Below, in pieces: positions 3,501 through 56,974 of a stretch of DNA of 64,000 nt. The stretch spans positions 10,912,001 to 10,976,000 of the forward strand of contig NC_042997.1 of NCBI RefSeq assembly GCF_006345805.1, in the 5' to 3' direction. How positions within the stretch are numbered: position 1 is the stretch's first letter; each line of letters starts with the position of its first letter. This stretch comes from Octopus sinensis. Lineage: Eukaryota. Below the pieces are notes generated by a model, which searched no databases, had not been told where the DNA came from, and worked only from the letters and a program-made list of their open reading frames with translations. Both the position numbers and the translations under genes were made by a program.

Positions 3501-6500
3501 TGAACAGGGCCTCCTTCATTGGGTTGTGTGTCTCCGTGTGTGTGTGTGTGTGTCCGTGCATGTGTGTGTGTCCATGCGTGTAGCTGTGTGTTTTATACTC
3601 CTGTTCGCACTGAGAATTAAGATTATAGTTACAGTACATATTTCATTTCTTTTATTATAGAAATTCACTGAAAATACTGTAGTAGTAAAAAGGTCATTCA
3701 TGGGCATAAAACTATTAATTCAAAAGTATTCAATTACAGAATACAATTTTCGCATTCTCTAACTTTTACCGTCATTGATGTTATGGTTAGTTTAATGACA
3801 AATTATTTTTTTTTTTATCTATGTTTTGCAGGTTATCAATAAGGATACTGTTTGCCTATCTATTGGAGATGGTTCTTTAATTCCTCTTATTGCTGCTAAG
3901 TTAGGAGCCAAAAAGGTATCTGCTTACAACTGGGTTTTTCTAAACCATATAAAGTTTTATTTATGCTTTGTTTTCATTAGGTTGTAGATTGCCAGTGCCG
4001 CCTGACTGGCACCCTTGCCAGTGACATGTAAAAAGCACCATTAGGGTATGGTCGTTGCCAGTGCCACCTGACAGGCTTCCCTGCTGGTGGCACGTAAAAA
4101 GTACCATTCAAGCATAGTCGATGCCAGTAATACCTGACTGGCCCTCGTGCTGGTGGCACATAAAAAGCACCCAAAACTCTCTCGGAGTGGTTGGCGTTAG
4201 GAAGGGCATCCAGCTGTAGAAACTTTGCCAGATCAGATTGGAGTATGGTACAGCCTTCTGGCTTGCCAGTCCTCAGTCAAACCATCCAACCCATGCCAGC
4301 AGGGAAAGCAGACGTTAAATGACGACGATGAGGATGATTTCAGAAAATAACAAGATGTTTGTTATTTTCCTTTAATCTATGAAGCCTCCGTTGTTGCATT
4401 AATAACAACAGTTGACATTATCTCAGTTATTACCTTCTCTCCTTTCTGTGCTCAAACGAGTTCTAGTGACACAACGTTGTATCAGTTTTACAGAGATTAA
4501 GTAATATAACCTCGAGTAATTGAACCTAAGGTTTTTGTGGTTGTATTTCTTTCCTGATTCCTATTTTGTTTTAATTTGTTTGCTTCAGTTTTTTAACTAT
4601 CGCACAACAAATAGGAAGACATCATATTGAGTATCATAACTGATACATAACAAATACATCCTAATCATTTTAATTTCATCATTCATGTTTTATTAATGAA
4701 CTCATAAAATATATTGGTATTAATAATGTCTAATTTCATTATGCTTGACATAAGAATACACACACACACACACGAAACGATTTATTTTATACATTTATAA
4801 TGTATATACAAATGTACAACTGTACAAGCTTTAATGTTATAAACACAAAATCTCTCAAATAAAGTCTGAGACAGATATATTGCAGCTATCACCATTCTAT
4901 GTTTGTATAGAATATAACTTAGATAAGTTTTGGCCAGTATAGGCCCAGACCATGTCTAACTTAAAAGCACCACCTGGTGAAGCCTTTTAGATCATGATTC
5001 ACATCTCAGTTATGTATGGGACACCATGGCCCACTCTAGCAAAGAGTTATTATTGTTGGAGACATATCCAAGTGTAGGGACTTTTTGGAGAAATTTGTCC
5101 AGAGAACATTTGAATTATTTTAATCAATGCTGTTTTGAAGTGCATGTGTTCTTTATTATATTCTCCATTTCACCCCTTCATTATCTCTACCACTACTCAT
5201 AATTCCTGTTTCCCTGCCCCCACGTAAAAAACACCATTCAAGCATGATCGTTACCTGCGTCACCTTACTGGCACTTGTGCTGGTGGCACGTGAAAAAACA
5301 TTCGAGTGAGGTCGTTGCCAGTGCCGCTGGACTTGCTCCTGTGCAGGTGGCACATAAAAGGCACCATTTGAGCGTGGCCATTGCCAGTACTGTCTCACTG
5401 GCCCTCGTCCCAGTGGCACGTAAAAGCACCCACTACACTCACAGAGTGGTTGGTGTTAGGAAGGGCATCCAGCTGTAGAAACTCTGCCAGATCAGATTGG
5501 AGTCTGGTGCAGCCATCTGGTTCACCAGACCTCAGTCAAATCGTTAGGAAGGGCATCCAGCTGTAGAAACTTTGCCAGATCAGATTGGAGCATGGTACAG
5601 CCTTCTGGCTTGCCAGTCCTCAGTCAAACCATCCAACCCATGCCAGCAGGGAAAGCAGACGTTAAAGGCACCATTTGAGCATGGCCATTGCCAGTACTAT
5701 CTCACTGGCCCTCGTCCCAGTGGCACATAAAAGCACCCACTACACTCACGGAGTGGTTGGTGTTAGGAAGGGCATCCAGCTGTAGAAACTCTGCCAGATC
5801 AGATTGGAGTCTGGTGCAGCCATCTGGTTCACCAGACCTCAGTCAAATCGTTCAACCCATGCTGGCATGGAAAACGGACTTTAAACGATGATGATGATGA
5901 TGATATTTATGTACCTATAACTTATTCTATGCTAAGTAATTGACCAAATTTGTTTTGGGGAGAAAAATTAAATTTATGTACATAATATATGAGAACCTGA
6001 ACACTAGGCACTCTGAAGTATCAATGGTAGTACGATTCAAGTCTGTGGGTCTGTTTCTTATTTCTATTTCATTAAGTGTTTATGATGTACAATGTCATTT
6101 TAATTTGAATTTTAACTTCTATTTATATCAGGTTTTTGCTGTTGAAACCCATAAACACAATTATCAAATCATAGAGAGTTTTATTAAAAGTAACAATGCC
6201 GAAGGTGTTATCACATTATTAGACAAAATACCTACAAAGCAGCAGTTTGATTTAATGAAGGTAAAATTATAAATTCTATCATTTTCTCCTTTGATGTTTC
6301 TTCATTATATTTCCTTCTCAGTTTTTATCCTTGTTCACTTTCTCCTCCACAACATCTCACCTTTCTCTATCTCTCTCTCTCCCCATTCACTACACCTGCC
6401 CCTCACTTTTACAACTTACCCAATCATGTCTTCTCTCCCTGTCTTCCTTCTATCCTCTCTGTTTCACTACTTATCTCTCAACACACGTTCTCGATTATAT

Positions 6501-21100: not shown

Positions 21101-23562
21101 TCTGTATGCTGTTTTAGTAAGAATAATTCCATTCTTATCAGGCTGTGATTGATTGATTTGGTTTTCATACTTGAGGAAGCAGAAACACACAGAAATATGT
21201 CTTGTGATCCAATGATGTCATTCACAAAAATATTTCCACACACGCCTAGGAGAAATTTTTTTTTGAGACTATTTCCACTGCAAGTCTTATCACTTGTTGA
21301 ATGCACTCAAAATGTGTTTAATGTGAATTTACATAAATATATATAGAGAGAGACAGACAGACAGAATCAGATAAAAAAAATCAAAGGCTGTAAATAGTTT
21401 TCAGAACATTTATAAAGAAAAGGTCTTACAGCTGTTTCCGGGATATTTTATATATGCCTTCATCAGAGATGGTGCAAGAAAATGAGTATTAATTATTGTA
21501 GAGAAAATATGAAATACAGAGGGAAGTAACAGAATGAAAATAGAGATACATAAGGATATTGTATTTGCAGTTCCATTATTCAAGTAGAATGGTGTATATA
21601 AGTTGTGAAGAAATTTCTTGTACATTATGTGTGAGTTCCAATGGTAGTTATGTTTTGTCATTCCAAGCATAGAGCCTGTAAACAGTGTTGTTCGTTCGAG
21701 GGGGATTTTTGATGTGAATTAAAATCTGGGAATGTGTTTGTAATATCAATGGATAGATGGAGGGAGGAGAGATTTCTATGATTAGAAAACAGGAAGAAGG
21801 AAAAGGGAGGGTGACAAAAAAAAATGAAGAGGGAACGAAATGAAATGAGAGAGGGTGTGTTAGCTAGTGGTCAAGATAAAATGATAGGAGGAAGGGAGAG
21901 ATGAGAGGGTAAAGAGTAAAAAAGTGTGAGGTATGTGAGCAGAGGTGGTGTGATAGAGCTGCATTAGGGGATGGGTATAGAAAAGGTAGAGAGAAGGTCA
22001 GGGTAGGGTGATGTGTAAGTGGGTATTAGTTTTGGTGGTAAAAATTGAGGCAGAAATAAGTCAAGTTGCTATAAATAGTTGTGTGATAAGTAGGAAAAGA
22101 AAGAAAGAATGTAAGAGTGTATATCTGGAGAGAAAAAAAAGAACGATTTTTTTTGTGGCCGTTGCCAGTACCGCCTTACTGGCCCTCGTGCCGGTGCCAC
22201 GTAAAAGCACCCACTACACTCTCGGAGTGGTTGGCGTTAGGAAGGGCATCCAGCTGTAGAAATCTGCCAGATCAAGATTGGAGCCTGGTGCAGCCATCTG
22301 GTTCGCCAGTCCTCAGTCAAATCGTCCAACCCATGCTAGCATGGAAAGCGGACGTTAAACAATGATGATGATGTATACACACACCCACACATATATAGAC
22401 ATATACTTCAACATAGGCATATGTATACAAACTCATGTATGTTCACACTCATTCACACATATATATGCTTATTCGTATTTATTTTTGTATATATAAATGT
22501 ATGCACGCAAACACACATGCATAATCATATGTATGAATATATACACACTTGCAATCACACACACAGGCACATATGTGTACATATATATACTTACATATAT
22601 CCACATGCAAATCCATATTTAAATAAAATAGCTATACATATACTCATACATACTCGTTTATATGTATACAAACACATACACACACACACATATATATATA
22701 AAGTTAATCCAAACATGAAAACACAACAACGCGAGGACGTGGAACAAATATAGTATTATTGAACGCTCAAGAAGGAAGGGAAGAAGGAGGGTTTTACATT
22801 TCGAGCGGAGCTCTTCGTCAGAAACATAGGAAAAAGAAAGATCCAGAGAAGGGAAGACGGAGGGAAAAAAATCGCCAACGGTACACACGCAGCCACATTT
22901 TGCATATATATATCATCATCTGATGCTTCTTAGGTCCAGCTTTTCTCTCAAGGTACTTACACTCTGCCGAGTATGAGTACTGACATTACACATCCATCGG
23001 AGCATACTGGCTTCATTTCTTGCGAGCTTACGCATATCCTCAGCAGTCACGGCCCATGTTTCACTGCCATGTAGCATGGCTGTTCGTACACACGCATCAT
23101 ACAGTCTGCCTTTTACTCAGAGCGAGAGGCCTTTTGTCACCAGCAGAGATAAGAGCTCTCTGAACTTTGCCCAAGCTATTCTTACTCTAGCAGTTACACT
23201 TTCAGCACACCTGCCCCCGCTGCTGACTTGGTCACCTAGGTAATGGAAGCTATCAACTATTTCTGGAAAGTGACAGAAGTTGATCTCAGAGCATTTTCAG
23301 TGTTTATTGTTCCTGAGCATCTGCCACATACAAAAACCATCTTCCTATTTAGCCTTCCTTTGACATTGCTGCACCTCTTATGTGTCCATAGCTTACACTT
23401 GGTGCATCCTATAGAGTTTCTACCTACACCTTTTCTACAGATTGAGCAGGGCCATCTACCTGAAGGCGTTTGTGATTTGTCTACCTTCCTACTTATTAGG
23501 ACTTTGGTTTTAGCTAGATTGACTCTAAGACCCTTCGATTATGTTCATATATGTATATACAT

Positions 23563-26500: not shown

Positions 26501-29500
26501 TACTTATCAGATGCGTTTACAGTTTCAGAGTTGATAAGATTAAGGCAGCTTCTTGCACCCTCGGAGAAACTGAGGGTGCATGGAGCTTACCTCAAATTTG
26601 CAAAATTTAAAAGCTATTAACTCTTTATTAATTTATTTATGGCGAAAATGAATTTCAAGGCATTGATTTAGCATATAAAACTATATCATTACACCAAATA
26701 TGAAATCAATTTGAACAGCAATTGAAGAGATTGAAAATTGGGCAGCCAAACAGAAAAGATCCAGTATTTTTGAAGGGGTGTGTCCTATGTAATTATGATC
26801 TGATGGAGCTCTCTGGTTTCTCAACAATCTTAATGTTGAGTTTGAGTTTGATGTCCTTCAGAGCCTTCCTAAATCTATGGGCTAATTTCCCATGAGGTGT
26901 GGCCTCTACGAACATCACTCCTTGATATTTATCAGCCGTGAACCATGTGTTCACTGTTTGCTTTGTCACAAATCCTCTGTATACAACCTTCTTTCTTTCA
27001 TCAGGTGGTGTACTACTTGCATTAATTGAAGGTGTAGGCATATTAATTACTCGGTTTTCTGCAGAACAGTTCAATCCCGGTAAGTTTGACATTTATTTTT
27101 TCTTTTTGTCCAGCTATATTAAACCATAGACATTCCTTTAGAAGTTATGTGCTTTATTTAGATATTTTATTGATAAGCAAAATTTATCAATAAAAGACCA
27201 ACAATGTGTTTCCCTTTTTATTTCTGTATATTTTTTAAACATTGTTTTATATTTTATAGCATTTTTAATACCTTAATACTAATTGTTTTAGGAATGCTTT
27301 TAATCATCATCATCAACATCATTTAATATCTGCTTTCCATGCTGGCATGGGTTGGATGGTTTGACTGAGAACTGGCAAGCTGGGTCCAATCTGATTTGGC
27401 AAGGTTTCTACAGCTGGATGCCCTTCCTGATGCCAACCACTCTAAGAGTGTAGTGGGTGCTTTTATGTACCACTGGCATGGGAGCCAGTCTGGTGGCACT
27501 GACATAATTTCTGAATATACTGTATAGGTCTGACTTTTCCAATGGTACGCAGGTGTCAATGAATGGTTGAATGACCAGATCCAAGCTTCTCTGCTAGTTC
27601 CTCGACGATTACGATGGGATTTTGTTCCACCAGGGTTTGCTGGACATCCTCGTCGAGCTCTACAGTTCTTCCAGAATGAGGCTTGTCTTCTAGGCTGTAG
27701 TTTCCAGCTCGGAATTTCTGGAACCACAGTTGACACTGGCTTATGTACATTGTCCATTCCCCCCATATACTGTATTAATTTTCCTCCCACTTTCCATTGC
27801 ATTGTTGCCTTTATTGAACTCATAAAGCAGAATATGCCAAACATGCTCCTTTGTCATTTCCATTAGCTTTGAAAAAAATAACTGTTAAAATCGAATTGCA
27901 CCCTTCAAAACTTGCACCAAGAATAAGGACAAGGTAACATTACTACCTGCTTTTATAGCAAGTTGATGAAAGTTGCTTATCCCGTCGCGTCTGACTTTTA
28001 GTTCATATAATTGAAAGAACCACTTTATTTATGGGATGACCCAATATATATATAAAAGCATGTGTTTGTGTATGTGTATTTTTGCCAAAGTATATTAGTA
28101 AAGGTTGTTAATAATTACAAGAAAGCCATAAAACCACTCCTCTTTAAATGAAGTTTCTTGCAATATTTGTTCTATGTTGTTAGACATTCCCTTGTCTCTC
28201 TCCTTGTTGGAAATAAGTGAACCAGTGATTGTCCTATTTGAAACCTATAATTGATAACACAGCTGCTCACATTTTCTGATATAAATAAAAATTATCAGAG
28301 CATATATAAATGTTTTGATTATTAAGTAGAAATAATAGTGGCATATTGCCAGAAATGCCTTATTGTATTCAGTTTTTTACACTGCAAGAAATAAATATCA
28401 TTAATACACTAGAGTCAATTCAAGGACTATACTACCAACCATGCAAAACAGTGACTGTGCTTAGCCAAGGGAACATTAGATCATGGCTGTTTCTTATATA
28501 TGTTTGTAAGCAAAGTTGCTGCATTGACCAGCCGTGACATCCCTCTCTCTTGTCCTTCTCCACTGACAACTGTATCATCTTTATTACTCCTACTGCTTTC
28601 CCCCACCCTATCCATTCTGTCAGTCTGGTTGTGTTTTCCATACAGTTTTGCAAACTGATTCTTCAACCCACCTTGTGCCTTGTGGGACCATTGATGTACC
28701 TCACCGCCAATATTTATCTTAACAGCTCCTACTGTTCATTTTCTCTGTCTGTACTCTCCCCCTACTATTGTAGCCAAGCAGATCTTCTACAAGAACCTGC
28801 ACTGCTTCCTGGTTCTCTTAGTTCAATCCCCTTGTCCCTTAGCATGAAGCTACCCCACCATCAGGATTTGTAGTTCTGCAAACTGCATTACAACCTGAAT
28901 AGTGCAGGTAGCATGAAAAAGGTATCCACTCTACATTGAAAATGGTTGGCATTAGAAAGGGCATCCAGCCATAGAAACCTTGCCAAAATGACCTTGGAGT
29001 ATGACACAGTCCTTGGAGACATCAAATCCTGTCAGACCATCCAGCCCATGCCAGCATGGAAAAGTTAAATGATGATGAATGAATATTGTATGTTAACTAT
29101 TTCTGCTTCAGTAAGTATTGAAATAGAGTTGAGATAATTTTAGAAATAAGTTTTAGTTATGGTTGTTATTAACTTAATGTGAATGTGCCATTTTATTTTT
29201 AAAATCACAAAAGAGTCAGAAAAGTGCAAGTAAAAATTAGAAGTATTAGTTAATAACCACAGGATATTTTTTTGAATTCCAGTTTTAATGCAGATATTGA
29301 GTTTAAATTTTCCACTTTTTAAGACTATTTCATGTAGAGGTATTTTATTATTCCTTTTAGAGCTAGAATAATCCGTTAATTCTTAATATCACATCAAATG
29401 TAATATAATATCATAATATTTTTATTACCTTATTTTAGAATTTTATTAAGTATTTCTTAAATAAAAATGTACCATTTTATTACATGCTTGAATTATTTCC

Positions 29501-37009: not shown

Positions 37010-38543
37010 ATAATAATAATAATAATGAAATTATTGTATACAGTGCTCAGGTGCACCACAACTTGTCAGACAGTGCATATAAAGCACATGCAGTAATGTA
37101 AAAATGTCTGGAAAGCGAACAATGCATGAGTCAGATACATGCTTGTGTGTGTATGGAGGGGAGAAAAATCAGGTGTAGTGTTGGCGAATCTCAGAAAGCA
37201 TGGAAGTTTTGAAGGATGCAGTGCTCCGACAATTAACAACTGATGCCGGCAGTTTGTTCCATGCTTCAGCAACTCTCAGCATGAAAAAATGTTTCATAAA
37301 GTCATGGGAGCTGTGCTGTTTTCTGACTTTATAAATATGTCCACGGGTGTTAGATGGGTGGAGTTTGAAAAGGTGCTCAGAGTTATTGTTTGTATGATGG
37401 TTGATAATTTTATGGGTGTCTGCCAAGTCAGCTGCCAGACGTCGGAGTTTCAATGTGTCCATGCTCAGGGAAGTAAGGCGTTCAGAATATGGCAAATGCC
37501 TGATGGAGGGCATTCTTTTGGTTGCACGTCACTGAACGGCTTCCAGACGATTGATATCCTGGGCAAGATAGGGGTTCCAGACCGGTGATGCAAATTCCAG
37601 GTGAGGTCTTACCATAGCTATATAGAGCCGCAGATAGATAGTCGGAGAGTGGCTCACAAAGGATTTGGTGAGTGATGCCAAGACACCCTCAGCCTTCTTG
37701 ACAATTTTAGCAATGTGTTTTGTCCAACACAAATCACTGTCGACAATAACACCCAGGTCACGTTCACATGAAGACTTTTTGAGACTAGTGTTGTGGAGGG
37801 AGTAGGTGGACGCTGGGTTTCTCCTCCCAAAATGCATGGTGGTACATTTGTCCACAGCCAGCTTGAGTTGCCAGTCCATGATCCACTGCTGCATTGTGTC
37901 CAGGTCTGCTTGCAATAGAGATCTATAGTGTACAGGATCTGACCTCTTTATTTCGAGGTACAGCTTGATGTCATCTGCATATTTCAGCACTGTGGCATTC
38001 TTTAAGTTGACATCTATGTCATTAACATATGCAACAAATAAAAGGGGCCAAGAACAGATCCCTGTGGTACACCAGATGTCATTTCATAGGGCGAAGAGTG
38101 CTGTCCTAGAACTGTGGCAACCTCTTTTCGACCGAAAATAAAGGACTTCAACTAGTTATAGAGTTCGTCTCTTATGCCCAACGCAGAGAGCTTCACCATA
38201 AGTCTTTTGTGGGGCACAGAGTTAAAAGCCTTAGCAAAGTCCAGGTAAACAACATCCACCCAGGATCCGCAATCAGTGATTTGGGTAACGTCCTCAAGAA
38301 ACTCGATGAGTTGATTACAGCAGCTGGAGTTAGGAATAAATCCAAATTGTGACGGCTGGATGAGGCTGTGAGACTTCCAGAGGGTTCCTCTGATACAGGA
38401 TTCCATCAGTTTGGCGATGCAGCTAGTAAGGCGATAGTTGACAGGCGATGTGCGGTCGCCTTTTTTGAACAGAGGGATAACACTGGCAGTTTTCCACTGT
38501 TCTGGAGTAACACCATTGTCAAGACAGAATTGGAAGAATAGAG
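37010..38543 (-). mobile_element. 5'-truncated CR1-clade LINE (RT pseudogene)
   Basis: WKTASVIPLFKKG, QFGF, VYLDFAKAFNSVPH, LKYADDIKLY, ERDLGV, VRPHLEFASPVWNP and TRGH motifs; (TTA)n tail; stops and frameshifts. Confidence 0.93.
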
Positions 38544-38732
38544 AATGCATTTATACATATGTACAAATATCACCATATAATATACACACAATATATCATT
38601 GCACATATGCATATTTATACTTATGCACATGTATATATATGCATAGAAGCATTGTTCAGTATTCAACATTGACATATGCTTCCATTCATAAATACTTGCA
38701 CACACTCTCACATGTATGTATATACATATGTA

Positions 38733-41385: not shown

Positions 41386-41676
41386 AGTGTTCATCTTGAA
41401 ATACTGTTTTTAAATCATGATATGAACAAAATCTGTAATAAACTGGTAATCCTATCCAGGGGATGCCTTTACTGCTTAAGTTTAGCAGTAATCCTTTCTA
41501 GTTATAACTATATTGAAGTACTGAAACTGTACCTTAGATTGAAACACCTACTTTGATGAGTCACCAAATTTATAGGAAACCTACCTCGAGTAAAGTTCAT
41601 CCCCAAATCATAAAATGCTCTTCTTTCTACATTATTTACATTCGACGGATATTTGTCCTCATCTTGTTTGTTGTTA

Positions 41677-41720
41677 ACACAACATTTCGGCTGATATACC
41701 CTCCAGCCTTCTTCAGGTGT
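41677..41720 (-). ncRNA. Minimal hammerhead ribozyme motif, left arm
   Basis: ACAC-CTGAAGA-A-GGCTG(loop)CAGCC-GAAA-TGTT-GTGT. Confidence 0.7.
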
Positions 41721-41903
41721 CTTGGGAACATTTCAAACCTGGGTTCTCATTCCAAAGGTATTTTTCTATGTTATTATTATTGTTCAGGTTACTGCTTGGA
41801 ATCGAACTCAGAATCTTGGGGTTAGTAGCCTGCACTCTGAACCATAATAATAACATCGAAAAATACCCTAGAAATGAGAACCCAGGTTCGAAATTTCCAC
41901 AAG

Positions 41904-41947
41904 ACACCTGAAGAAGGCTGGAGGATATATCAGCTGAAACGTTGTGT
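41904..41947 (+). ncRNA. Minimal hammerhead ribozyme motif, right arm
   Basis: ACAC-CTGAAGA-A-GGCTG(loop)CAGCT-GAAA-CGTT-GTGT; palindromic ACGT stem III. Confidence 0.75.
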
Positions 41948-42191
41948 TAACAACAAACAAGATGAGGGCAAATATCCGTCTAATGTAAATAACGTACATA
42001 ATTCCTATCTCTTAAATATAGAACTGCTCTTCTTTCTTACATACAGCTACCTATTACATTGTTGTTGTTGCCTTCAGTGAAGCCTGAAGTATCAGCTAGA
42101 CCTCTACTCTCCTACTATGTACATCTAAGTAAAAATTGAATAAAAAGCACAGGAGTACAAAATCTTTGCTATAAATAATAGTAGCATTATC

Positions 42192-42611
42192 GGATCTTTT
42201 CGGTTTGAACGGCAGTTTTTAAAAATAATTTCCACGTAACTAAACACTTTTAAACTTCGTATACTGGTAGATTGTGTTTATAAAACATCTTTTTCTCTTG
42301 GCTTTATTGAGAAAATTCTATAGTTTATAAGATATTTGTTGTTTTTTTTTCTTAAATTTCTCCAATTTCAACCAATCATTGACGTCTATTGAGGTAAAAA
42401 AAAACATTCTGTGCCGTATGAATATGTCCCTCGTTTAAGGAACAGATTGGGTTTATTTACATTTGTGAAGAAAAAAAGATACCCTTCCCCCATCCCTAAC
42501 CCTAATCCTAAAACAGATTGAAATGCAATAGATCGATACTAGGGTCATAATTATGGGTGACAATTTCATATGACACCGCTAGAAAAACTGCCGTTCAAAC
42601 CGAAAAGATCC
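42192..42611. mobile_element. Merlin-like MITE, copy 2 (inverted relative to copy 1)
   Basis: Same TIR; 8-bp TSD GCATTATC at 42184-42191 and 42612-42619. Confidence 0.9.
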
Positions 42612-43807
42612 GCATTATCATACTACTTATGTTCACTAGATAACATAAATGAACATGGCTGAGCAGATAGTTTGCACCATGTCAGCTGTAGTTCTTTGGA
42701 GCTAAACTGTAAAATTGCTCAGTCCACTTAACCGTAATAGATACTACATGCAGCTATTTATAGTCAACACATAACGTTAAGAATTATTACATTAGCTGTA
42801 GTGCTGAGTCTGAGCCTTTCTGTGGGTACACTTTAAAGAGATATGGGCAAGCACAACCATCTTTATTTACCCTGCATCAGCAGTTATCAAACTGAAAAAT
42901 ATCAGCCCACTCCTACTCCACAAAAAAATATTAAAGAAATTCTATGAGACTTTTTTCTTCAAGACAAAAATAGCTTCCATATAATTCGCCTTCTTTCTTC
43001 ACCATGCCATTGGACTATTTAAAAAGTTGATTGGAAGCTTGCCTAATTTTATTAAAAATGGCAATTTGCCCTCCCAGTTTTCAATCTTATGAAAAACACT
43101 GCCCTAGACTGTTAAGAAGATTAATTTACAGCCACGTGGTTTCAGGTTTGATCCTACAGAATGGCACTTTCGGAAAATGTCTTTTACAATGACCTTGAAT
43201 CAATTAAATCCTTGGGTACGAAATTTGAGGGATAGAATTACATGGAGGTCTGTAGGAAGGACTGTTCTTGTTCTTAAGTAGTAGACTTAATCTGTCACCC
43301 AGTTTAATACCACCACCTGGTCCTTGGTAAAGTACGCTGCTTTAGCTAACTAGTCTCAAAGTAACAGCCTCCTTTGCTTCCACCGATCACTGTAGCCTTA
43401 AAAAGGAGACTTTTCTTTCTTTTCTGACGAAGCTATTAAAATATCCATTTTTAAATCCATACTTCCTAGTGTACTTTACATGTCTTATATGAGAGAAGTT
43501 GTACTTTAGAGTATTAAGCACCGAAGCCTTCAGTGGTATTCGCGCGAAACAAAGTACCTTAGATTAAAGGCATGGATCTTGGGCGAACATAATCTGCAAT
43601 CGATTCACATCACTGTATTAAGAAAAAATGAATATCCACTATTCATCATCAATATTACAAATGTTTATAGCAGTAGATAAATATGTTGCTAAGGAACGAC
43701 TGCCAGTTTTCAAGTAGCAACAGGTTAGACCTGAAAACGAATGAGATAGCCGATCAGTGTTTATTTAGCCCTAGAGTTAATTTCGCTTAACCGGTTCAAT
43801 TATCATT

Positions 43808-50600: not shown

Positions 50601-53600
50601 TTTTAACACAACGAAATATGTTATCCCTAAAGTAATGCCATTTCAACAACAAAATAATAACTAAAAGAAATAGCTGATTCAGAATGAAACTCATAAGATA
50701 TAATGGGAAGAAAAATTCATTTTATAGTAGTAACATGTTTAGCCTCAAAATCGAACAAACTATGATCAAAATCATTTTAGCAATGACCATCCTGTCTTCT
50801 ATTTATTATTATTATATATTTTTTTCAAAAATATATCGCAGAACATATTCATTATGCATTTTCTTTATTGACACAGTAAGGTGTCTGAGATAAATTTCTT
50901 GCATTTCGAACAATTTCATAGGTGCTCTCTCATTGGCTTGAATTCATGAGCGAAAATAGCGCCTTTTATACACACACACACACACACACAACTATAATTT
51001 AGGTAAATTCTTAGTTACCATTTCTCGTGAAACGGGTGTAACAGAAAAAAATATTATGTTATATTCCTGCATTTAAATACTTTCCTGGGGTTTAATTAAC
51101 TGCAGATCTAACTCCCTCCCTCACATGTTAGATCATGCAGATTTTTGCCAAACATTGTTCTTTATCATCTTTTGTTTCCTCTTATGAGTTTTGCTAAGTA
51201 TATTTCATATTATTTATCTCCCCTGCTTGCTGTTTTTAGATTTTAAACACGTCGTGCATGGATAATCAATTGATCGAAGCTTTTCAACTTGCTATACACA
51301 GGGTGTTTGGACTAAATTTGACGATTTTTTAATGTCTTCTTTTTCAGGAACAGCTTTATGTATTGGTGAACAATCAATGGCATTGGGGAGTATAAAGATT
51401 AAAATTGGAGTTTTAGAAAAAGTTAGCTGACTGGAAGCTATCTGAACATTGGATAAGAGCTACCTGTATCATTATTATTTCACGCCAGGTATCAAAATGC
51501 TGACATAAGGGTTTCTGCTCTGTGAACAATGTAAAGGCTGTAATATGTGACATGGATAGCTGCAACAAAGTCTATGAAGCCGTGGCCAGCAAGAAGGAAT
51601 GCAGCAGGTTTTCTGACTCATTATGCCACCCCACATCTTTGAATAGGGCCTTAGACTCATTTTAGACAGTTATGTGAAGCTGTTGGAGACTATGGTCAAA
51701 CTCTGTTTGGAGAGGGTTTTTCCTGGAAGATGAGATGTGTAGCAGCAGGATTTGGCTCCCTACCATACCACCAGAGTCAGAAGTGGTTGTTGGAGAATTT
51801 CTATGACTTTACCAGTTCCAGTTTCTGGCTGCCTAATTCCCCCGATTGTAATCCCATGGATTAACTGTGTGAGGTGCTGTTGAGAAAGGCACCAATCACT
51901 CTACCTGCAACCCCAAGGTCAAGGTGGTGTTCGAAGATCTTCCCAGGGGCTGAGTGAGAAACACATGTACCAGGTTACAGAGCGATATTGAGGCCATGGT
52001 GGAAGCTGAAGGTAGTTAATTTAAGTGAACTGTTATTCCCCAGACATAATATAGTTGATATTTTAAAATTATTTAAAATATATTTATTTTTGTATGGTAT
52101 ATTGCGTTTTCTTTTCATTTTATGCAACCTGTCAAATTAGCCTGAACACCCAGTAACATTAATACAATTGTATTTAGTATGTAAAACATGATTCCCTGGG
52201 TTATTTTCCTTCAGCTTTTCTATTGTATTCACTACTCCACTCATTACTTTATGAATATTGCCATACTACATAAACCTCCCGTTCTCACTAACTGCCACCC
52301 AATATATCTTTTTTAACCTAATCGTGATCATTGCCAGTGCCATGCAAATGGTACCCATGAATCGTTGTGGTTACTGCCAGTGCTGTGTAACTGACACCCA
52401 TGCATCTTAGTTGTGGTCGTTGGTGATGCCATGTAAAAAGCACCACCTGTAAATCATCATGGTTGTTGTCAGTGTCATGTAAATGACACCCATGTCAGTG
52501 GCACATAAAAGCACCATTCCTGGAGTGGTTGGCATTAGGAAGGGCATCCAGCTGTAGGAACCATGCCAAATCAGATTGGAACCTGGTGCAGCTCTCCAGC
52601 TCATCAGTTCCAGTCAAACCATCTAACCTATACCAGCATGGACAGCAAACGTTAAATAATGATGCTGGAGCTAACCAATCTCAACACTATAGTCACTCCT
52701 TAATCTAATATACTAAGTAGAGGTAAGAAGTCTTTTAGTAACCCTCAGATGGGAGGGTCAGAATGGTTACAACAGAATAAACTCTGCTAAAGGCTTTTAA
52801 GAGCCAAGCAGTGGTATTATACTGGTAAAATATTTAGTGTACCACCCTATAAAACAAATATTGTCTATCTGACAAGCTTTGACACAGTTCTATCTACCAA
52901 ATTTCTAAAACAACATTAACTTCAGACACAATTCCAGTGAGGTCATTTGTATGTTCACCTACTTAAAGTTACATGAAGATCTTCATACTCAATATGACTA
53001 TAAACATAGGCAAAATCTCATTTAACTATGCTAAAGGAAAACAAAGAATTAATCATTTATACCTGCAACCTATACTAACAAAACACAGTTAGAGAATATG
53101 AGTGGCTCAATATTAATTTGTTAATTGACTTTCTAGTTGTTTATTCAGCCAACTTTGTGTGTGTGTTTCAAGTACATCTGGACATAAAAGGACATAAGTT
53201 GGCCATGGACTTAATATAACAAGGACTGGTGAATCTCACAAGAGTTTGCGCTCTTTATTATAGGAATCAGCAAACTAATTATTTACTGATGACTGCCGAA
53301 CAGATAATGATAACCTACTCTACTGAATAGGATAACGTTAAATGAAGAGACACTCAACAAGATTGAAACACAAAGGTGTCTCAAAATCCCCATACACTGG
53401 TGAACTGCATATTTTACAAACACACATTGTCTAAAGAGAGGTGTTCTCTGATGATGGAAATCAACAGCAATCAGATATCCATGTTTAAGTCTGCCAAAAT
53501 ATATTAAGAATGAATAATAAGAACATTTAGCTAAAATGAGATAGATAGTATTGGAGTAAGTATTCATGGACACATTGAAAAGGATGTTAATTACTAACAA

Positions 53601-54008
53601 TTTGGCTTTTTTCTTCTATATTTTGCAGAAATACCTACTATTGACAGAGCTTATATTGTAAGTGAAAAAAGCTTATCACTGATAGCAAAACACATTAAAA
53701 GCGGTTTGACTGTAATTCGCTTAGGAATGATGTTAAATATTCCCAACACAGTTATTTTACGTTATCTGATGAGTATATGTGGAAAGTATGGTTTAAGAGA
53801 TGCAACTGAAAAAGAAGTTCATCAATTGGGAAAAAACTTACTTATTTATTGGCTCCGTATGAAAGAACACAGCAAACATAAAGAGAAAGCATCTCTTCTT
53901 ACAACAGCACTGGTTGAATGCAGCCTTGAAGGAATTGCAAATATTGTCTTAGAGAACTACAATAACCAAACAGAAATAACTGATGACCAGTTTTTAAGGT
54001 ATCAATAA
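43808..54008 (+). CDS. Small death-domain-fold protein, 133 aa, two coding exons (43808-43829, 53629-54008)
   Basis: ATG exon MSDAPPG with GAG|GTAAGT donor (phase 1) joins in frame to a TTTTGCAG acceptor exon. The product has a death-domain helical pattern: SEKSLSLIAKHI..RLGMMLNIP..I..LLIYW..LTTALVECSLEGIANIV. Confidence 0.75.
44690..44925 (-). mobile_element. tRNA-derived SINE of a second family
   Basis: Minus strand TGGCCTAGTAGTTAGAGC..GGGTTCGAATTTC A/B boxes. Confidence 0.7.
46232..46582 (+). mobile_element. tRNA-derived SINE with a stuttered head (GGCTGTGT)x3
   Basis: Same family as 41000. Confidence 0.88.
46906..47119. mobile_element. Palindromic mariner-derived MITE
   Basis: TIR-like TAAATTCGTTCGGTTTT / AAAAGCGAACGAATTTA; internal inverted AATATTCTCCTTCATTGTTC / GAACAATGAAGGAGAATATT. 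Confidence 0.7.
47575..47950 (-). mobile_element. Dimeric Nin/Deu-type SINE
   Basis: Two tandem GAAAGGATGAAAGGCAAAGTCGACCTCGGCGGAATTTGAACTC units. Confidence 0.85.
48041..48537 (+). mobile_element. Solo non-autonomous Helitron
   Basis: A|TC...hairpin..CTAG|T; nearly identical to 34964-35466. Confidence 0.9.
48557..49087. mobile_element. Merlin-like MITE of a second family, followed by a partial related copy at about 49110-49395
   Basis: Termini GGCAAGACTTCCG / CGGAAATCTTTCC; 8-bp TSD GATAATTT; internal TTAGGG-like tract at 48920-48953. Confidence 0.8.
51299..52153 (+). mobile_element. Decayed Tc1/mariner (DD37D/maT-like) transposon
   Basis: TIRs CAGGGTGTTTGGACTAAATTTGAC / GTCAAATTAGCCTGAACACCCAG; remnants QQDLAPYHT and WLPNSPDCNPMD. 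Confidence 0.82.
52325..52665 (+). mobile_element. RTE 3'-end repeat (old)
   Basis: Core motif with decayed tandem units. Confidence 0.7.
53629..54008 (+). CDS. Main coding exon of the death-domain-like gene
   Basis: Strong acceptor, 380-nt open frame in non-repetitive DNA, stop TAA overlapping AATAAA at 54004-54009. Confidence 0.85.
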
Positions 54009-55859: not shown

Positions 55860-56530
55860 TCATGGCTTGCCACTTCATCCTATGTGGATATCCCCTCACC
55901 ATTATCCACACTGCCCTTGCCCAAGCACGATCTGCTCTTTCTCCTCACATCCACCCCACTCTTACCCGTTTCCTTTCACCTACCATCCCTCCAGTACACC
56001 ATTCTCTGAACTTTCCAGTGATTCCAGTCTGAGCTCTCCACCTTGTACATCTTCCTTAACCTACACTTTCCCTCCAAACAAGCCCATAACCTGCATGACC
56101 TGGTCCGCAGTTTCTTCCTACCCCTGCCTCTCAGCCTGACTCCTTCCCCATGCTGTCACACCTGCCCCTACCTCTCCAACACCACCATCCTCACTGGCAC
56201 TTATCACGTCACTGACTTCTTTACCTGCACCTCTAGTAATGTTATTTACTGCATCTCCTGCTCTCTGTCCTTCCCTGTACATTGGTCAAACAGGATGCTG
56301 CTTGGCTGACTGGTTCACGGAACACTTCCGGGACATCAGATTCGGCAATAATGCCCTGGTCTCATTCCACTTCCACTCTACCAGTCATTCACTACAACAT
56401 CTGTCTGTGTTTGGACTGTATCTGGAGAGACGCCACCCAGACTGCCACCTTTGCTGTGAACAAGAATTAATCTTCCCTCTTAATTCCTTTGTGCCATATG
56501 GGTTCAACTTACTACTTTCTCTTTATCTGA
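55860..56530 (+). mobile_element. Penelope-like element 3' fragment (GIY-YIG)
   Basis: FTCTSSNVIYCISCSL / LYIGQTG..LADWFTEH..HFHSTSHS..EQELIF.L...PYGFN; followed by a CA-rich tract. Confidence 0.88.
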
Positions 56531-56974
56531 CACCAACCCCACGGATTCCCACACACCCGCATACCGTCTGCCTCAGTACCCTCACCACACACATACCACT
56601 ATACAAACACCCATACACTGTTCAATTCATTACACACTTCACACTCCATTACACATACACCCACAAACACTAGCACCGAACACATCTCAGCACCCACACA
56701 CAATCTTCAATAGTATCACCTACCACTATACAAGCAGCCACACATTGTTTAACCTGGTACACACACAAGCACATAATACCTGAACACAGACAATATATCA
56801 CACACATGCAACACACCTAGACAAAGATAACTTTTTCCCACAAACATACACTATACACATGCACACTATTTGGCCAGACACACACACACATATACACTCA
56901 CACACACACACACTTGCCCACACATACATACTCACTTGTCCCCATCCACACATGCTTGCACACCTTAGTTTGTT

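What the first reader, a model, noticed from the sequence alone, without database searches (positions are those of the whole stretch)
41629..42024. Palindromic tRNA-headed, twin-hammerhead mobile RNA element (retrozyme/SINE hybrid)
Seen: a 396-bp non-coding insertion with a perfect 13-bp TSD and 160-bp inverted arms. Each arm holds a minimal hammerhead (41677-41720 minus, 41904-41947 plus), so a transcript of either strand contains one ribozyme and its antisense. The 49-bp loop read on the minus strand is tRNA-like (GGTTCAGAGTGCAGGCTACTAACCCCAAGATTCTGAGTTCGATTCC, B box at 41798-41809). The inversion junction falls on a GTTCAG microhomology that truncates the tRNA 5' part. Known: Penelope-like elements have hammerheads and often 5' inverted terminal copies; retrozymes and schistosome Sm-alpha are non-autonomous hammerhead elements. 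Inference: a Pol III-driven SINE mobilised by Penelope RT/GIY-YIG rather than by a LINE, possibly undescribed in cephalopods.
Basis: partly seen in the sequence, partly recalled or inferred. Interest (0 to 1): 0.8.

Follow-up and report, generated by a model that had tools for sequence, protein, structure and literature searches.

The report
Penelope retrotransposon with tRNA-derived promoter
This 396-base palindrome is two head-to-head end pieces of an abundant Penelope jumping gene, a known kind of insertion, but this family's end repeat begins with a tRNA-like segment where most copies start, so it is likely switched on by a borrowed tRNA-type (RNA polymerase III) promoter.

Summary
In detail: 13-bp target-site duplication (TSD), 160-bp inverted arms, a minimal hammerhead in each arm and a tRNA-like loop. 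It is not a separate SINE/retrozyme hybrid. Head plus arm are the pseudo-LTR (pLTR) of an autonomous Penelope-like element (RT + C-terminal GIY-YIG) with roughly 27,000 arms in this genome. The arms carry the first ~50 codons of its ORF. Inverted pLTR + tail + TSD + hammerhead is known Penelope anatomy, and a second family in the window does the same without a tRNA head.

What I did not find in print is the tRNA-derived A/B-box segment at the 5' edge of the pLTR. Of 90 copies anchored on it, 76 begin within 28 nt upstream of the anchor, 16 of them at one base. Of 37 3'-anchored arms that reach it, 27 stop there. The ~2.6-kb unit has no shared TTTT terminator on its sense strand (1 of 29 relatives is also free of them). 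Best reading: a captured Pol III promoter sets the RNA start, and short insertions are by-products of twin priming. Pol III use and cleavage are untested; the RNA-seq laid here shows only read-through.

The parts
41616..41628 (.). left copy of 13-bp target-site duplication
   Evidence: family-wide TSD of 9 bp or more in 59 of 146 insertions vs 7 of 730 control pairings
41629..41844 (-). left cDNA: Penelope pLTR copy without tail (3' end at the first of two fixed family ends), running from inside the A box through the hammerhead
41677..41720 (-). minimal type I hammerhead motif, left arm (helix III palindrome has one C-to-T change)
   Evidence: activity untested
41629..41750 (-). first ~41 codons of the Penelope ORF (ATG at 41750; one in-frame stop in this copy)
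   Evidence: same frame runs into the RT ORF in L080, L081 and aligns with the N-terminus of P0008
41782..41844 (-). tRNA-derived head of the pLTR, 5'-truncated inside the A box; B-box-like motif at 41809-41798
41837..41844 (.). inversion junction; imperfect microhomology between the antisense A-box region and the 3' end of the head
41837..42024 (+). right cDNA: Penelope pLTR copy with tail (3' end at the second fixed family end), 5'-truncated at the head's last bases and (AAT)n run
41874..42024 (+). first ~50 codons of the Penelope ORF
41904..41947 (+). minimal type I hammerhead motif, right arm; palindromic helix III; predicted cleavage after GUU 41941-41943
   Evidence: activity untested
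41997..42024 (+). Penelope 'tail': extension present on one arm only
   Evidence: matches the tail between two RT start sites in PMC11167929
42025..42037 (.). right copy of 13-bp target-site duplication

Best explanation
The 396-bp stretch is a short inverted insertion of an autonomous Penelope-like retrotransposon, made of two head-to-head copies of its pseudo-LTR, and the tRNA-derived segment that opens this pseudo-LTR is likely an internal RNA polymerase III promoter that sets the start of the element's RNA. SHOWN: head, (AAT)n, hammerhead and tail lie directly behind the RT/GIY-YIG ORF and also directly in front of it. Copies have two fixed 3' ends about 28 nt apart. Inverted insertions nearly always pair one of each. 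The two arms of one insertion tend to share source variants. 5' ends pile up about 13 nt upstream of the A box. The whole unit lacks shared TTTT runs. INFERRED: the RT/endonuclease nicks both target strands 9-15 nt apart and primes one cDNA on each strand, one from each of two start sites in the first ~150 nt of the ORF (as shown in vitro for the Anolis element). A cDNA started at the 5' pLTR runs off the RNA's 5' end after ~270 nt, at the head, and may fold back on the small terminal palindrome. The two cDNAs join through a few matching bases, giving the palindrome and the TSD. Short copies end at the RT start sites, so they probably lack the downstream protein-binding region and are mostly dead ends, not a SINE lineage. 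The hammerhead probably needs a dimer or the protein and is not needed to explain the insertion.
For: Autonomous element: GIY-YIG C-terminus upstream of the head in all 30 loci; RT motifs and Pfam RVT_1 E=1e-9; 40% identity (RT part) and 30% (C-terminal part) to an 836-aa Anolis carolinensis protein; 5' pLTRs that start at the head and run into the ORF in L075, L081, L086. Two ends: 69 tail/no-tail pairs, 9 no-tail/no-tail, 0 tail/tail among 78 classified pairs, 15 tail/tail expected. Same source: 54 of 64 pairs agree at the CUGA[U/A]GA site; shared variants 0.075 vs 0.041 +/- 0.006 in 500 shuffles. 5' pile-up: 76 of 90 within 28 nt, 16 at -21; 27 of 37 arms stop there against 8.5% expected from the core drop-off rate, p=2e-21. 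Fold-back of 4 nt or more without a partner head in 12 of 30 copies with an intact start; none of the 30 ORF-linked copies has it. Terminators: no T4 run shared among 10 long copies, 6 of 10 with none, 1.8-5.5 expected per copy; synonymous-shuffle P 0.007-0.06 for those six; 1 of 29 relatives has a T4-free unit. Literature: PMC11167929 (two RT start sites define the tail, both strands cleaved and extended, hammerhead overlapping the ORF start and not needed in vitro); PMC3846280 and PMC8557442 (inverted pLTR, optional tail, TSD, 5' palindromes).
Against: No direct sign of Pol III use. In two RNA-seq runs of a related organism, reads lay on both strands about equally, 73-76% ran on into unrelated flank, and no start pile-up was found; that looks like read-through of genomic copies. 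The T4 test rests on about one master lineage, so it is one observation at P about 0.03; L362 has a T4-free ORF yet a T-rich pLTR without a head. A Pol II start at the same place would give the same pile-up; the Drosophila Penelope has a LINE-like internal promoter (PMC2377424, abstract). An uncapped Pol III RNA must still be translated, and hammerhead cleavage would remove the first ATG. Junction overlaps of 3 nt or more were seen in only 20 of 93 inversions by BLAST edges, with gaps in 52, so microhomology is not general. 10 of 64 arm pairs disagree at the diagnostic site. The parent tRNA is unresolved.
Confidence: 0.7

Rival explanations
1. One reading: a separate Pol III SINE (tRNA head + hammerhead) that borrows Penelope enzymes and has its own source genes.
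For: 35 solo head-to-end monomers among the sampled insertions, 10 with a TSD of 9 bp or more; short copies outnumber ORF-bearing ones (10 of 69 arms reach the ORF); two tandem pLTR dimers, L181 and L182; non-autonomous Penelope derivatives are known (PMC8557442 passages; bioRxiv 10.64898/2026.07.22.740005).
Against: No letters separate 98 short from 54 ORF-linked copies beyond what the search patterns impose, and both carry the same T/A subfamily split (56/26 vs 26/16). The head is an integral part of the autonomous element. Short copies stop at the RT start sites, whereas the Anolis enzyme needed template some 50 nt beyond them (PMC11167929).
Confidence: 0.12
2. The tRNA-like segment is a relic (a tRNA pseudogene or SINE head with an (AAT)n tail that landed in the master's 3' UTR). 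Transcription is by Pol II from a start at the same place, or the small GCCC-AC-GGGC hairpin simply stops or captures the cDNA there.
For: (AAT)n tails are typical of other retroposons in this genome, which also insert into this run; the cloverleaf is lost; known Penelope promoters are Pol II-like (PMC2377424 abstract; PMC8557442 and PMC3846280 passages); the hairpin does promote fold-back.
Against: The boundary lies at tRNA-gene distance from an intact A box; A and B boxes are kept in register; the whole unit lacks TTTT, unlike 28 of 29 relatives and unlike the second hammerhead family in this genome; a 4-bp hairpin is a weak block for a 15-fold rise in drop-off (inference).
Confidence: 0.3
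3. A functional palindromic ribozyme RNA or retrozyme that is transcribed from either strand, self-cleaves and circularises.
For: Hammerhead motifs on both strands; the whole insertion folds into one long hairpin (-234.5 kcal/mol); animal retrozymes derive from pLTRs (bioRxiv 10.64898/2026.07.22.740005).
Against: Arms are 9% diverged, as expected for independent decay of copies 5-7% from the family's commonest letters; the core is intact in only 53 of 122 copies; the hairpin would bury the ribozyme; copies are dispersed, not tandem arrays; no pile-up of 5' ends at the cleavage site (3 of 69 arms within 107-111).
Confidence: 0.04

Closest known systems
Penelope/Poseidon-clade Penelope-like elements (PAc of Anolis carolinensis, Pen2a of Adineta vaga, Penelope of Drosophila virilis)
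   Same: Single ORF with RT then C-terminal GIY-YIG; pLTR overlapping the ORF start; minimal type I hammerhead in the pLTR; heavy 5' truncation; inverted 5' pLTR; ~30-nt tail on one end; 9-15-bp TSD; palindrome at the pLTR 5' end (PMC11167929 parts 1-2; PMC3846280, PMC8557442, PMC4209133 passages).
   Different: The pLTR opens with a tRNA-derived A/B-box segment and the unit lacks TTTT; described promoters are TATA/Inr-like or LINE-like Pol II promoters, some with an intron. No such head reached significance in 29 relatives with a locatable pLTR.
Schistosome Sm-alpha / Sj-alpha SINE-like hammerhead repeats
   Same: Pol III promoter next to a type I hammerhead (PMC6765202 passages; primary paper PMC108972 not held).
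   Different: Those are non-autonomous tandem repeats that need multimer cleavage; here the promoter-like head belongs to a protein-coding element, copies are dispersed and templates appear uncleaved.
Animal non-LTR retrozymes
   Same: Short pLTR-related units with a type I hammerhead, thought to use Penelope enzymes (PMC7229834 passages; bioRxiv 10.64898/2026.07.22.740005 parts 1-2).
   Different: Retrozymes are head-to-tail tandem repeats giving circular RNA; only 2 of 88 head-anchored insertions were tandem dimers and no circle was looked for.
tRNA-derived SINEs
   Same: tRNA-like head with A and B boxes, simple-repeat run, TSD-flanked short copies starting at the head.
   Different: No own lineage; the 3' part is the 5' coding end of the autonomous element; the head is not close to the other 23 tRNA-like repeats found in 400 kb of this genome (score at most 44 vs 144 for a family copy).

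Membership tests
EN+ Penelope-like element (Penelope/Poseidon type) | one ORF with PLE-type RT and C-terminal GIY-YIG endonuclease | tested here: met
   all long copies seen are broken by stops or frameshifts, so the domain order is read from pieces of natural copies (L064, L065)
EN+ Penelope-like element (Penelope/Poseidon type) | pseudo-LTR before and after the ORF | tested here: met
   3' pLTR in the 30 loci; 5' pLTR running into the ORF in L075, L080, L081, L086, L098
EN+ Penelope-like element (Penelope/Poseidon type) | minimal type I hammerhead in the pLTR | tested here: met
   motif present, core intact in 53 of 122 copies; Rfam does not score it
EN+ Penelope-like element (Penelope/Poseidon type) | inverted 5' copy, optional 30-40-bp tail, TSD | tested here: met
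EN+ Penelope-like element (Penelope/Poseidon type) | RT tree placement inside the Penelope/Poseidon clade | tested here: inconclusive
   groups with P0006, P0007, P0008 (100/99); base unresolved; no reference members of other clades were included
EN+ Penelope-like element (Penelope/Poseidon type) | ribozyme cleavage and target-primed reverse transcription | not testable with these tools
   bench work
tRNA-derived SINE | tRNA-related head with A and B boxes | tested here: met
tRNA-derived SINE | non-coding, non-autonomous lineage separate from its partner | tested here: not met
   arm encodes the ORF start; no diagnostic variants of short copies
tRNA-derived SINE | Pol III transcription | not testable with these tools
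   indirect signs only; the laid RNA-seq is uninformative
non-LTR retrozyme | head-to-tail tandem units each with an intact hammerhead | tested here: not met
   2 tandem dimers among 88 head-anchored insertions; the window copy is inverted
non-LTR retrozyme | circular RNA intermediate | not tested
   no suitable library was laid

The most novel reading that the evidence does not exclude
An autonomous, protein-coding Penelope retrotransposon has captured a tRNA promoter and is transcribed end to end by RNA polymerase III (hence no TTTT in 2.6 kb), so one element makes both its mRNA and tens of thousands of SINE-like short copies. This would be a living intermediate between Penelope elements and Pol III hammerhead SINEs such as schistosome Sm-alpha, with cap-independent translation.
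Probability: 0.4. Interest if true: 0.78.

Novelty: new variant of a known kind. Interest (0 to 1): 0.52.

Why it matters
The palindrome itself is ordinary Penelope anatomy, and automatic pipelines could easily file such copies as SINEs or MITEs. The family matters for two reasons. First, if the head is a working Pol III promoter, this is a protein-coding retroelement run by the tRNA polymerase, which raises the question of how its uncapped RNA is translated, and it offers a route by which Pol III hammerhead SINEs could arise from pLTRs. Second, thousands of copies with two fixed 3' ends, a fixed 5' edge and a near-strict tail/no-tail pairing give a genome-scale test bed for the still open question of how Penelope elements build inverted insertions.

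Tried and rejected
Rfam and ARAGORN at default score: no tRNA or hammerhead hit, so the head is not an intact tRNA gene.

Parent tRNA: among 41 distinct tRNAs of this genome, Arg(TCT) scored best for 3 of 5 heads, with Ser, Thr, Ile and Lys close; unresolved. A recalled tRNA-Ile motif found 0 matches.

Monomer folding of the hammerheads is no better than shuffles (z -1.2), and cofolding two copies did not single out a helix III dimer: inconclusive.

Pile-up of 5' ends at the hammerhead cleavage site: not seen.

Expression: no RNA holder listed on record. The two raw RNA runs laid showed read-through on both strands and no start pile-up; this says nothing for or against Pol III.

A second tRNA-headed Penelope: L336 has A/B-box-like motifs between stop and hammerhead, but 4 of 60 shuffles score as well; kept as a hint only.

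Pfam gave nothing for the GIY-YIG part. Viral contigs held no relative. Earlier scan findings: none returned. Phe codon bias TTC over TTT was not significant (p=0.057). The script failed after printing the numbers used; its last control (random arm identity) was not obtained.

Full report
OBSERVATION. The insertion 41629-42024 is flanked by a perfect 13-bp duplication. It has 160-nt inverted arms, 91% complementary, with 49 nt between. Each arm has a minimal type I hammerhead motif. The loop read on the minus strand aligns collinearly with this genome's tRNAs from the A box to the T loop. An HMM of 27 genomic tRNAs hits it at E=0.0069 and hits 66 of 91 family sequences at E<0.01, with no hit in shuffles. 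It is no cloverleaf for ARAGORN or Rfam.

A LARGE FAMILY. The right arm found 4,429 candidates, of which 40 were scored. Exact patterns matched 1,593 times (head) and 6,658 times (3' part), with 0 for reversed controls. Calibrating on copies not chosen by each pattern (3 of 51 and 22 of 93 exact) gives about 27,000-28,000 arms. Forty evenly spaced 10-kb stretches held 2 insertions, i.e. about 13,600 in the genome, range 1,600-49,000. Copies differ from the column-commonest letters by a median 5-7%. The ORF-head-hammerhead link is also in reads or contigs of coded organisms A, C and E.

IT IS A PENELOPE pLTR. Upstream of the head, L028, L029 and L013 carry the end of a GIY-YIG domain. Searching with that piece gave 2,240 candidates; in all 30 fetched loci the ORF end is followed by head sequence (29 by BLAST, L057 without a head hit), and all 30 hold arm sequence. 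Longer copies hold RT motifs, and L064 is near full length. The ORF 5' part found 245 candidates. In L075, L081 and L086 a pLTR that starts at the head runs straight into the ORF. The ORF starts inside the arm: L080 and L081 read through from the arm's ATG, and this N-terminus aligns with relative P0008. In the window the ATGs are at 41874 and 41750. The protein is 40% and 30% identical (RT part, C-terminal part) to an 836-aa Anolis carolinensis protein; that this is PAc is my inference from size and host. The tree places the family with P0006-P0008 and leaves the base open.

HOW THE PALINDROME FORMS. Set A is 90 head-anchored loci: 90 of the 100 listed matches, leaving out one already held, one second arm and the last eight; they represent 88 insertions. 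Set B is 70 loci anchored on the 3' pattern, covering the first 72 of 100 listed matches; L329 was dropped as a duplicate of L328. Both sets are from contig C1 and favour less-diverged copies. Arms end either at arm position ~155-168 or at ~186-194. Inverted insertions gave 69 mixed pairs, 9 short/short and 0 long/long. Nine pairs with an unclassifiable or missing end were left out, and one insertion is in both sets; 15 long/long pairs were expected. TSDs of 9 bp or more flank 59 of 146 insertions against 7 of 730 control pairings. The two arms agree at a subfamily site in 54 of 64 pairs, while CpG sites vary independently. This fits the in vitro work on the Anolis element, where both strands are cut and extended, two RT start sites define the tail, and the hammerhead overlaps the ORF start and is dispensable (PMC11167929, parts 1-2 of 4 read). 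It also fits the inverted pLTR + tail + TSD + 5' palindrome described in rotifers (PMC3846280, passages) and reviewed in PMC8557442 (passages). Twin priming here is inferred, not shown. A second hammerhead repeat in the window (21385-21500) also makes head-to-head pairs, has a T-rich body and has no tRNA-like head, so the palindrome needs no tRNA. Against a general microhomology rule: only 20 of 93 junctions overlap by 3 nt or more and 52 show gaps.

WHAT IS UNUSUAL. Counting from the GTGG of the A box, 76 of 90 set A copies begin between 0 and -28, 16 of them at -21, and 14 run on into the ORF. In set B, 18 of 69 arms stop in the core, 12 in the AAT run, 2 in the head body, 27 at 0 to -26, and 10 reach the ORF. 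The drop-off at the head's 5' edge is about 15 times that in the core. Twelve of 30 copies with an intact start carry a fold-back extension of the terminal palindrome with no partner head, and 6 of 30 have the loop flipped; the ORF-linked copies show neither. That is what a free cDNA end at the RNA's 5' terminus would do (inference). The edge lies about 13 nt before the A box, as for tRNA genes (recalled knowledge). Ten long copies (two of them near-identical) share no T4 run on the sense strand. Synonymous shuffles expect 2-4. Among 29 related elements with ORF and hammerhead, 1 has none. The caveats are real. This is roughly one master lineage. Two of 45 relatives have T4-free ORFs. A Pol II start would give the same pile-up. 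The RNA-seq laid showed only read-through. Translation of an uncapped RNA is unexplained; self-cleaving ribozymes can start cap-independent translation in RNA viruses (PMC13725137, abstract only), but here cleavage would cut off the first ATG.

NOT A SEPARATE SINE. Thirty-five sampled insertions are solo head-to-end monomers, 10 with a TSD, so SINE-like copies exist. But 98 short and 54 ORF-linked copies show no diagnostic difference beyond pattern ascertainment and share the same subfamily split. Seven of 88 heads had no arm within 1.3 kb: three are interrupted by other retroposons and four are unexplained. The head is not close to the common tRNA-like repeats of this genome.

KNOWN VERSUS NEW. 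Ten full-text searches returned no paper describing a tRNA-derived or Pol III promoter in a Penelope pLTR. 'tRNA' occurs 0 times in PMC3846280, PMC4209133 and bioRxiv 10.64898/2026.07.22.740005 and once, on selenocysteine, in PMC8557442. Seen as passages only: PMC6765202 (Pol III hammerhead SINEs of schistosomes), PMC7229834, PMC6962438, PMC8490949, PMC8967140, and PMC13282606 with its one supplement searched (190 Penelope-like consensus families listed, none described). Seen as abstract only: PMC2377424. The bioRxiv preprint was read in parts 1-2 of 5 and its supplements are closed. PMC108972 is not held. Repbase, Dfam and most subscription journals could not be searched, so the family may be catalogued.

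VERDICT. A new variant of a known kind. Penelope origin of the insertion: about 0.95. The head works as a Pol III promoter that sets the RNA start: about 0.6-0.7. Pol III makes the full-length coding RNA: about 0.4. Interest 0.52.

Noticed in passing
window 21385-21500, minus strand: A second hammerhead-bearing repeat family (1,845 candidates, 40 scored) with palindromic helix III, T-rich body, no tRNA-like head and head-to-head inverted pairs in 3 or more of 10 loci; probably another Penelope pLTR, ORF not found.
   Followed up: partly
window 42191-42612: MITE-like element with 30-bp perfect terminal inverted repeats, 170 bp downstream of the finding.
   Followed up: no
L336:2810-2905 and 5600-5700: Tandem Penelope with an intact 901-codon frame from a metagenome contig; A/B-box-like motifs, loosely collinear with intron-containing tRNA-Tyr, lie between the stop codon and the hammerhead, with only 2 T4 runs per 2.8-kb unit. 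Not significant against shuffles (4 of 60) and not sister to this family.
   Followed up: partly
L005, L006, L050, L065, L124, L167, L202, L212: Other retroposons with (AAT)n ends often insert into the (AAT)n run of the pLTR and split head from hammerhead.
   Followed up: partly
L181, L182: Head-to-tail pLTR dimers joined where the tail and the antisense head share CTCTTAA; possible seeds of retrozyme-like arrays.
   Followed up: no
L117, L126, L177, L217: Head followed by flank or a short AAT run with no arm within 1.3 kb; no clear TSD seen by eye; could be deletions or head-only retroposition.
   Followed up: partly
L064, L071, L072, L073: The same near full-length insertion with identical flanks on one chromosome-scale contig and three small contigs (98% alike): duplicated segment or alternative haplotypes.
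   Followed up: no
window 37169-38550, 1539-2033, 56140-56673: Fragments of other retroelements; the frame at 56140-56673 looks like the antisense or a shifted frame of another Penelope-type element (impression, not tested).
   Followed up: no
window 53598-54008, plus strand: A 136-residue open frame that reads like a host exon with a death-domain-like pattern (recalled resemblance, not searched).
   Followed up: no
G000 C4:115.57-115.62 Mb, C3:67.26-67.30 Mb, C7:93.04-93.07 Mb: Tandem clusters of tRNA-Ile(AAT) and tRNA-Ser(GCT) genes.
   Followed up: no
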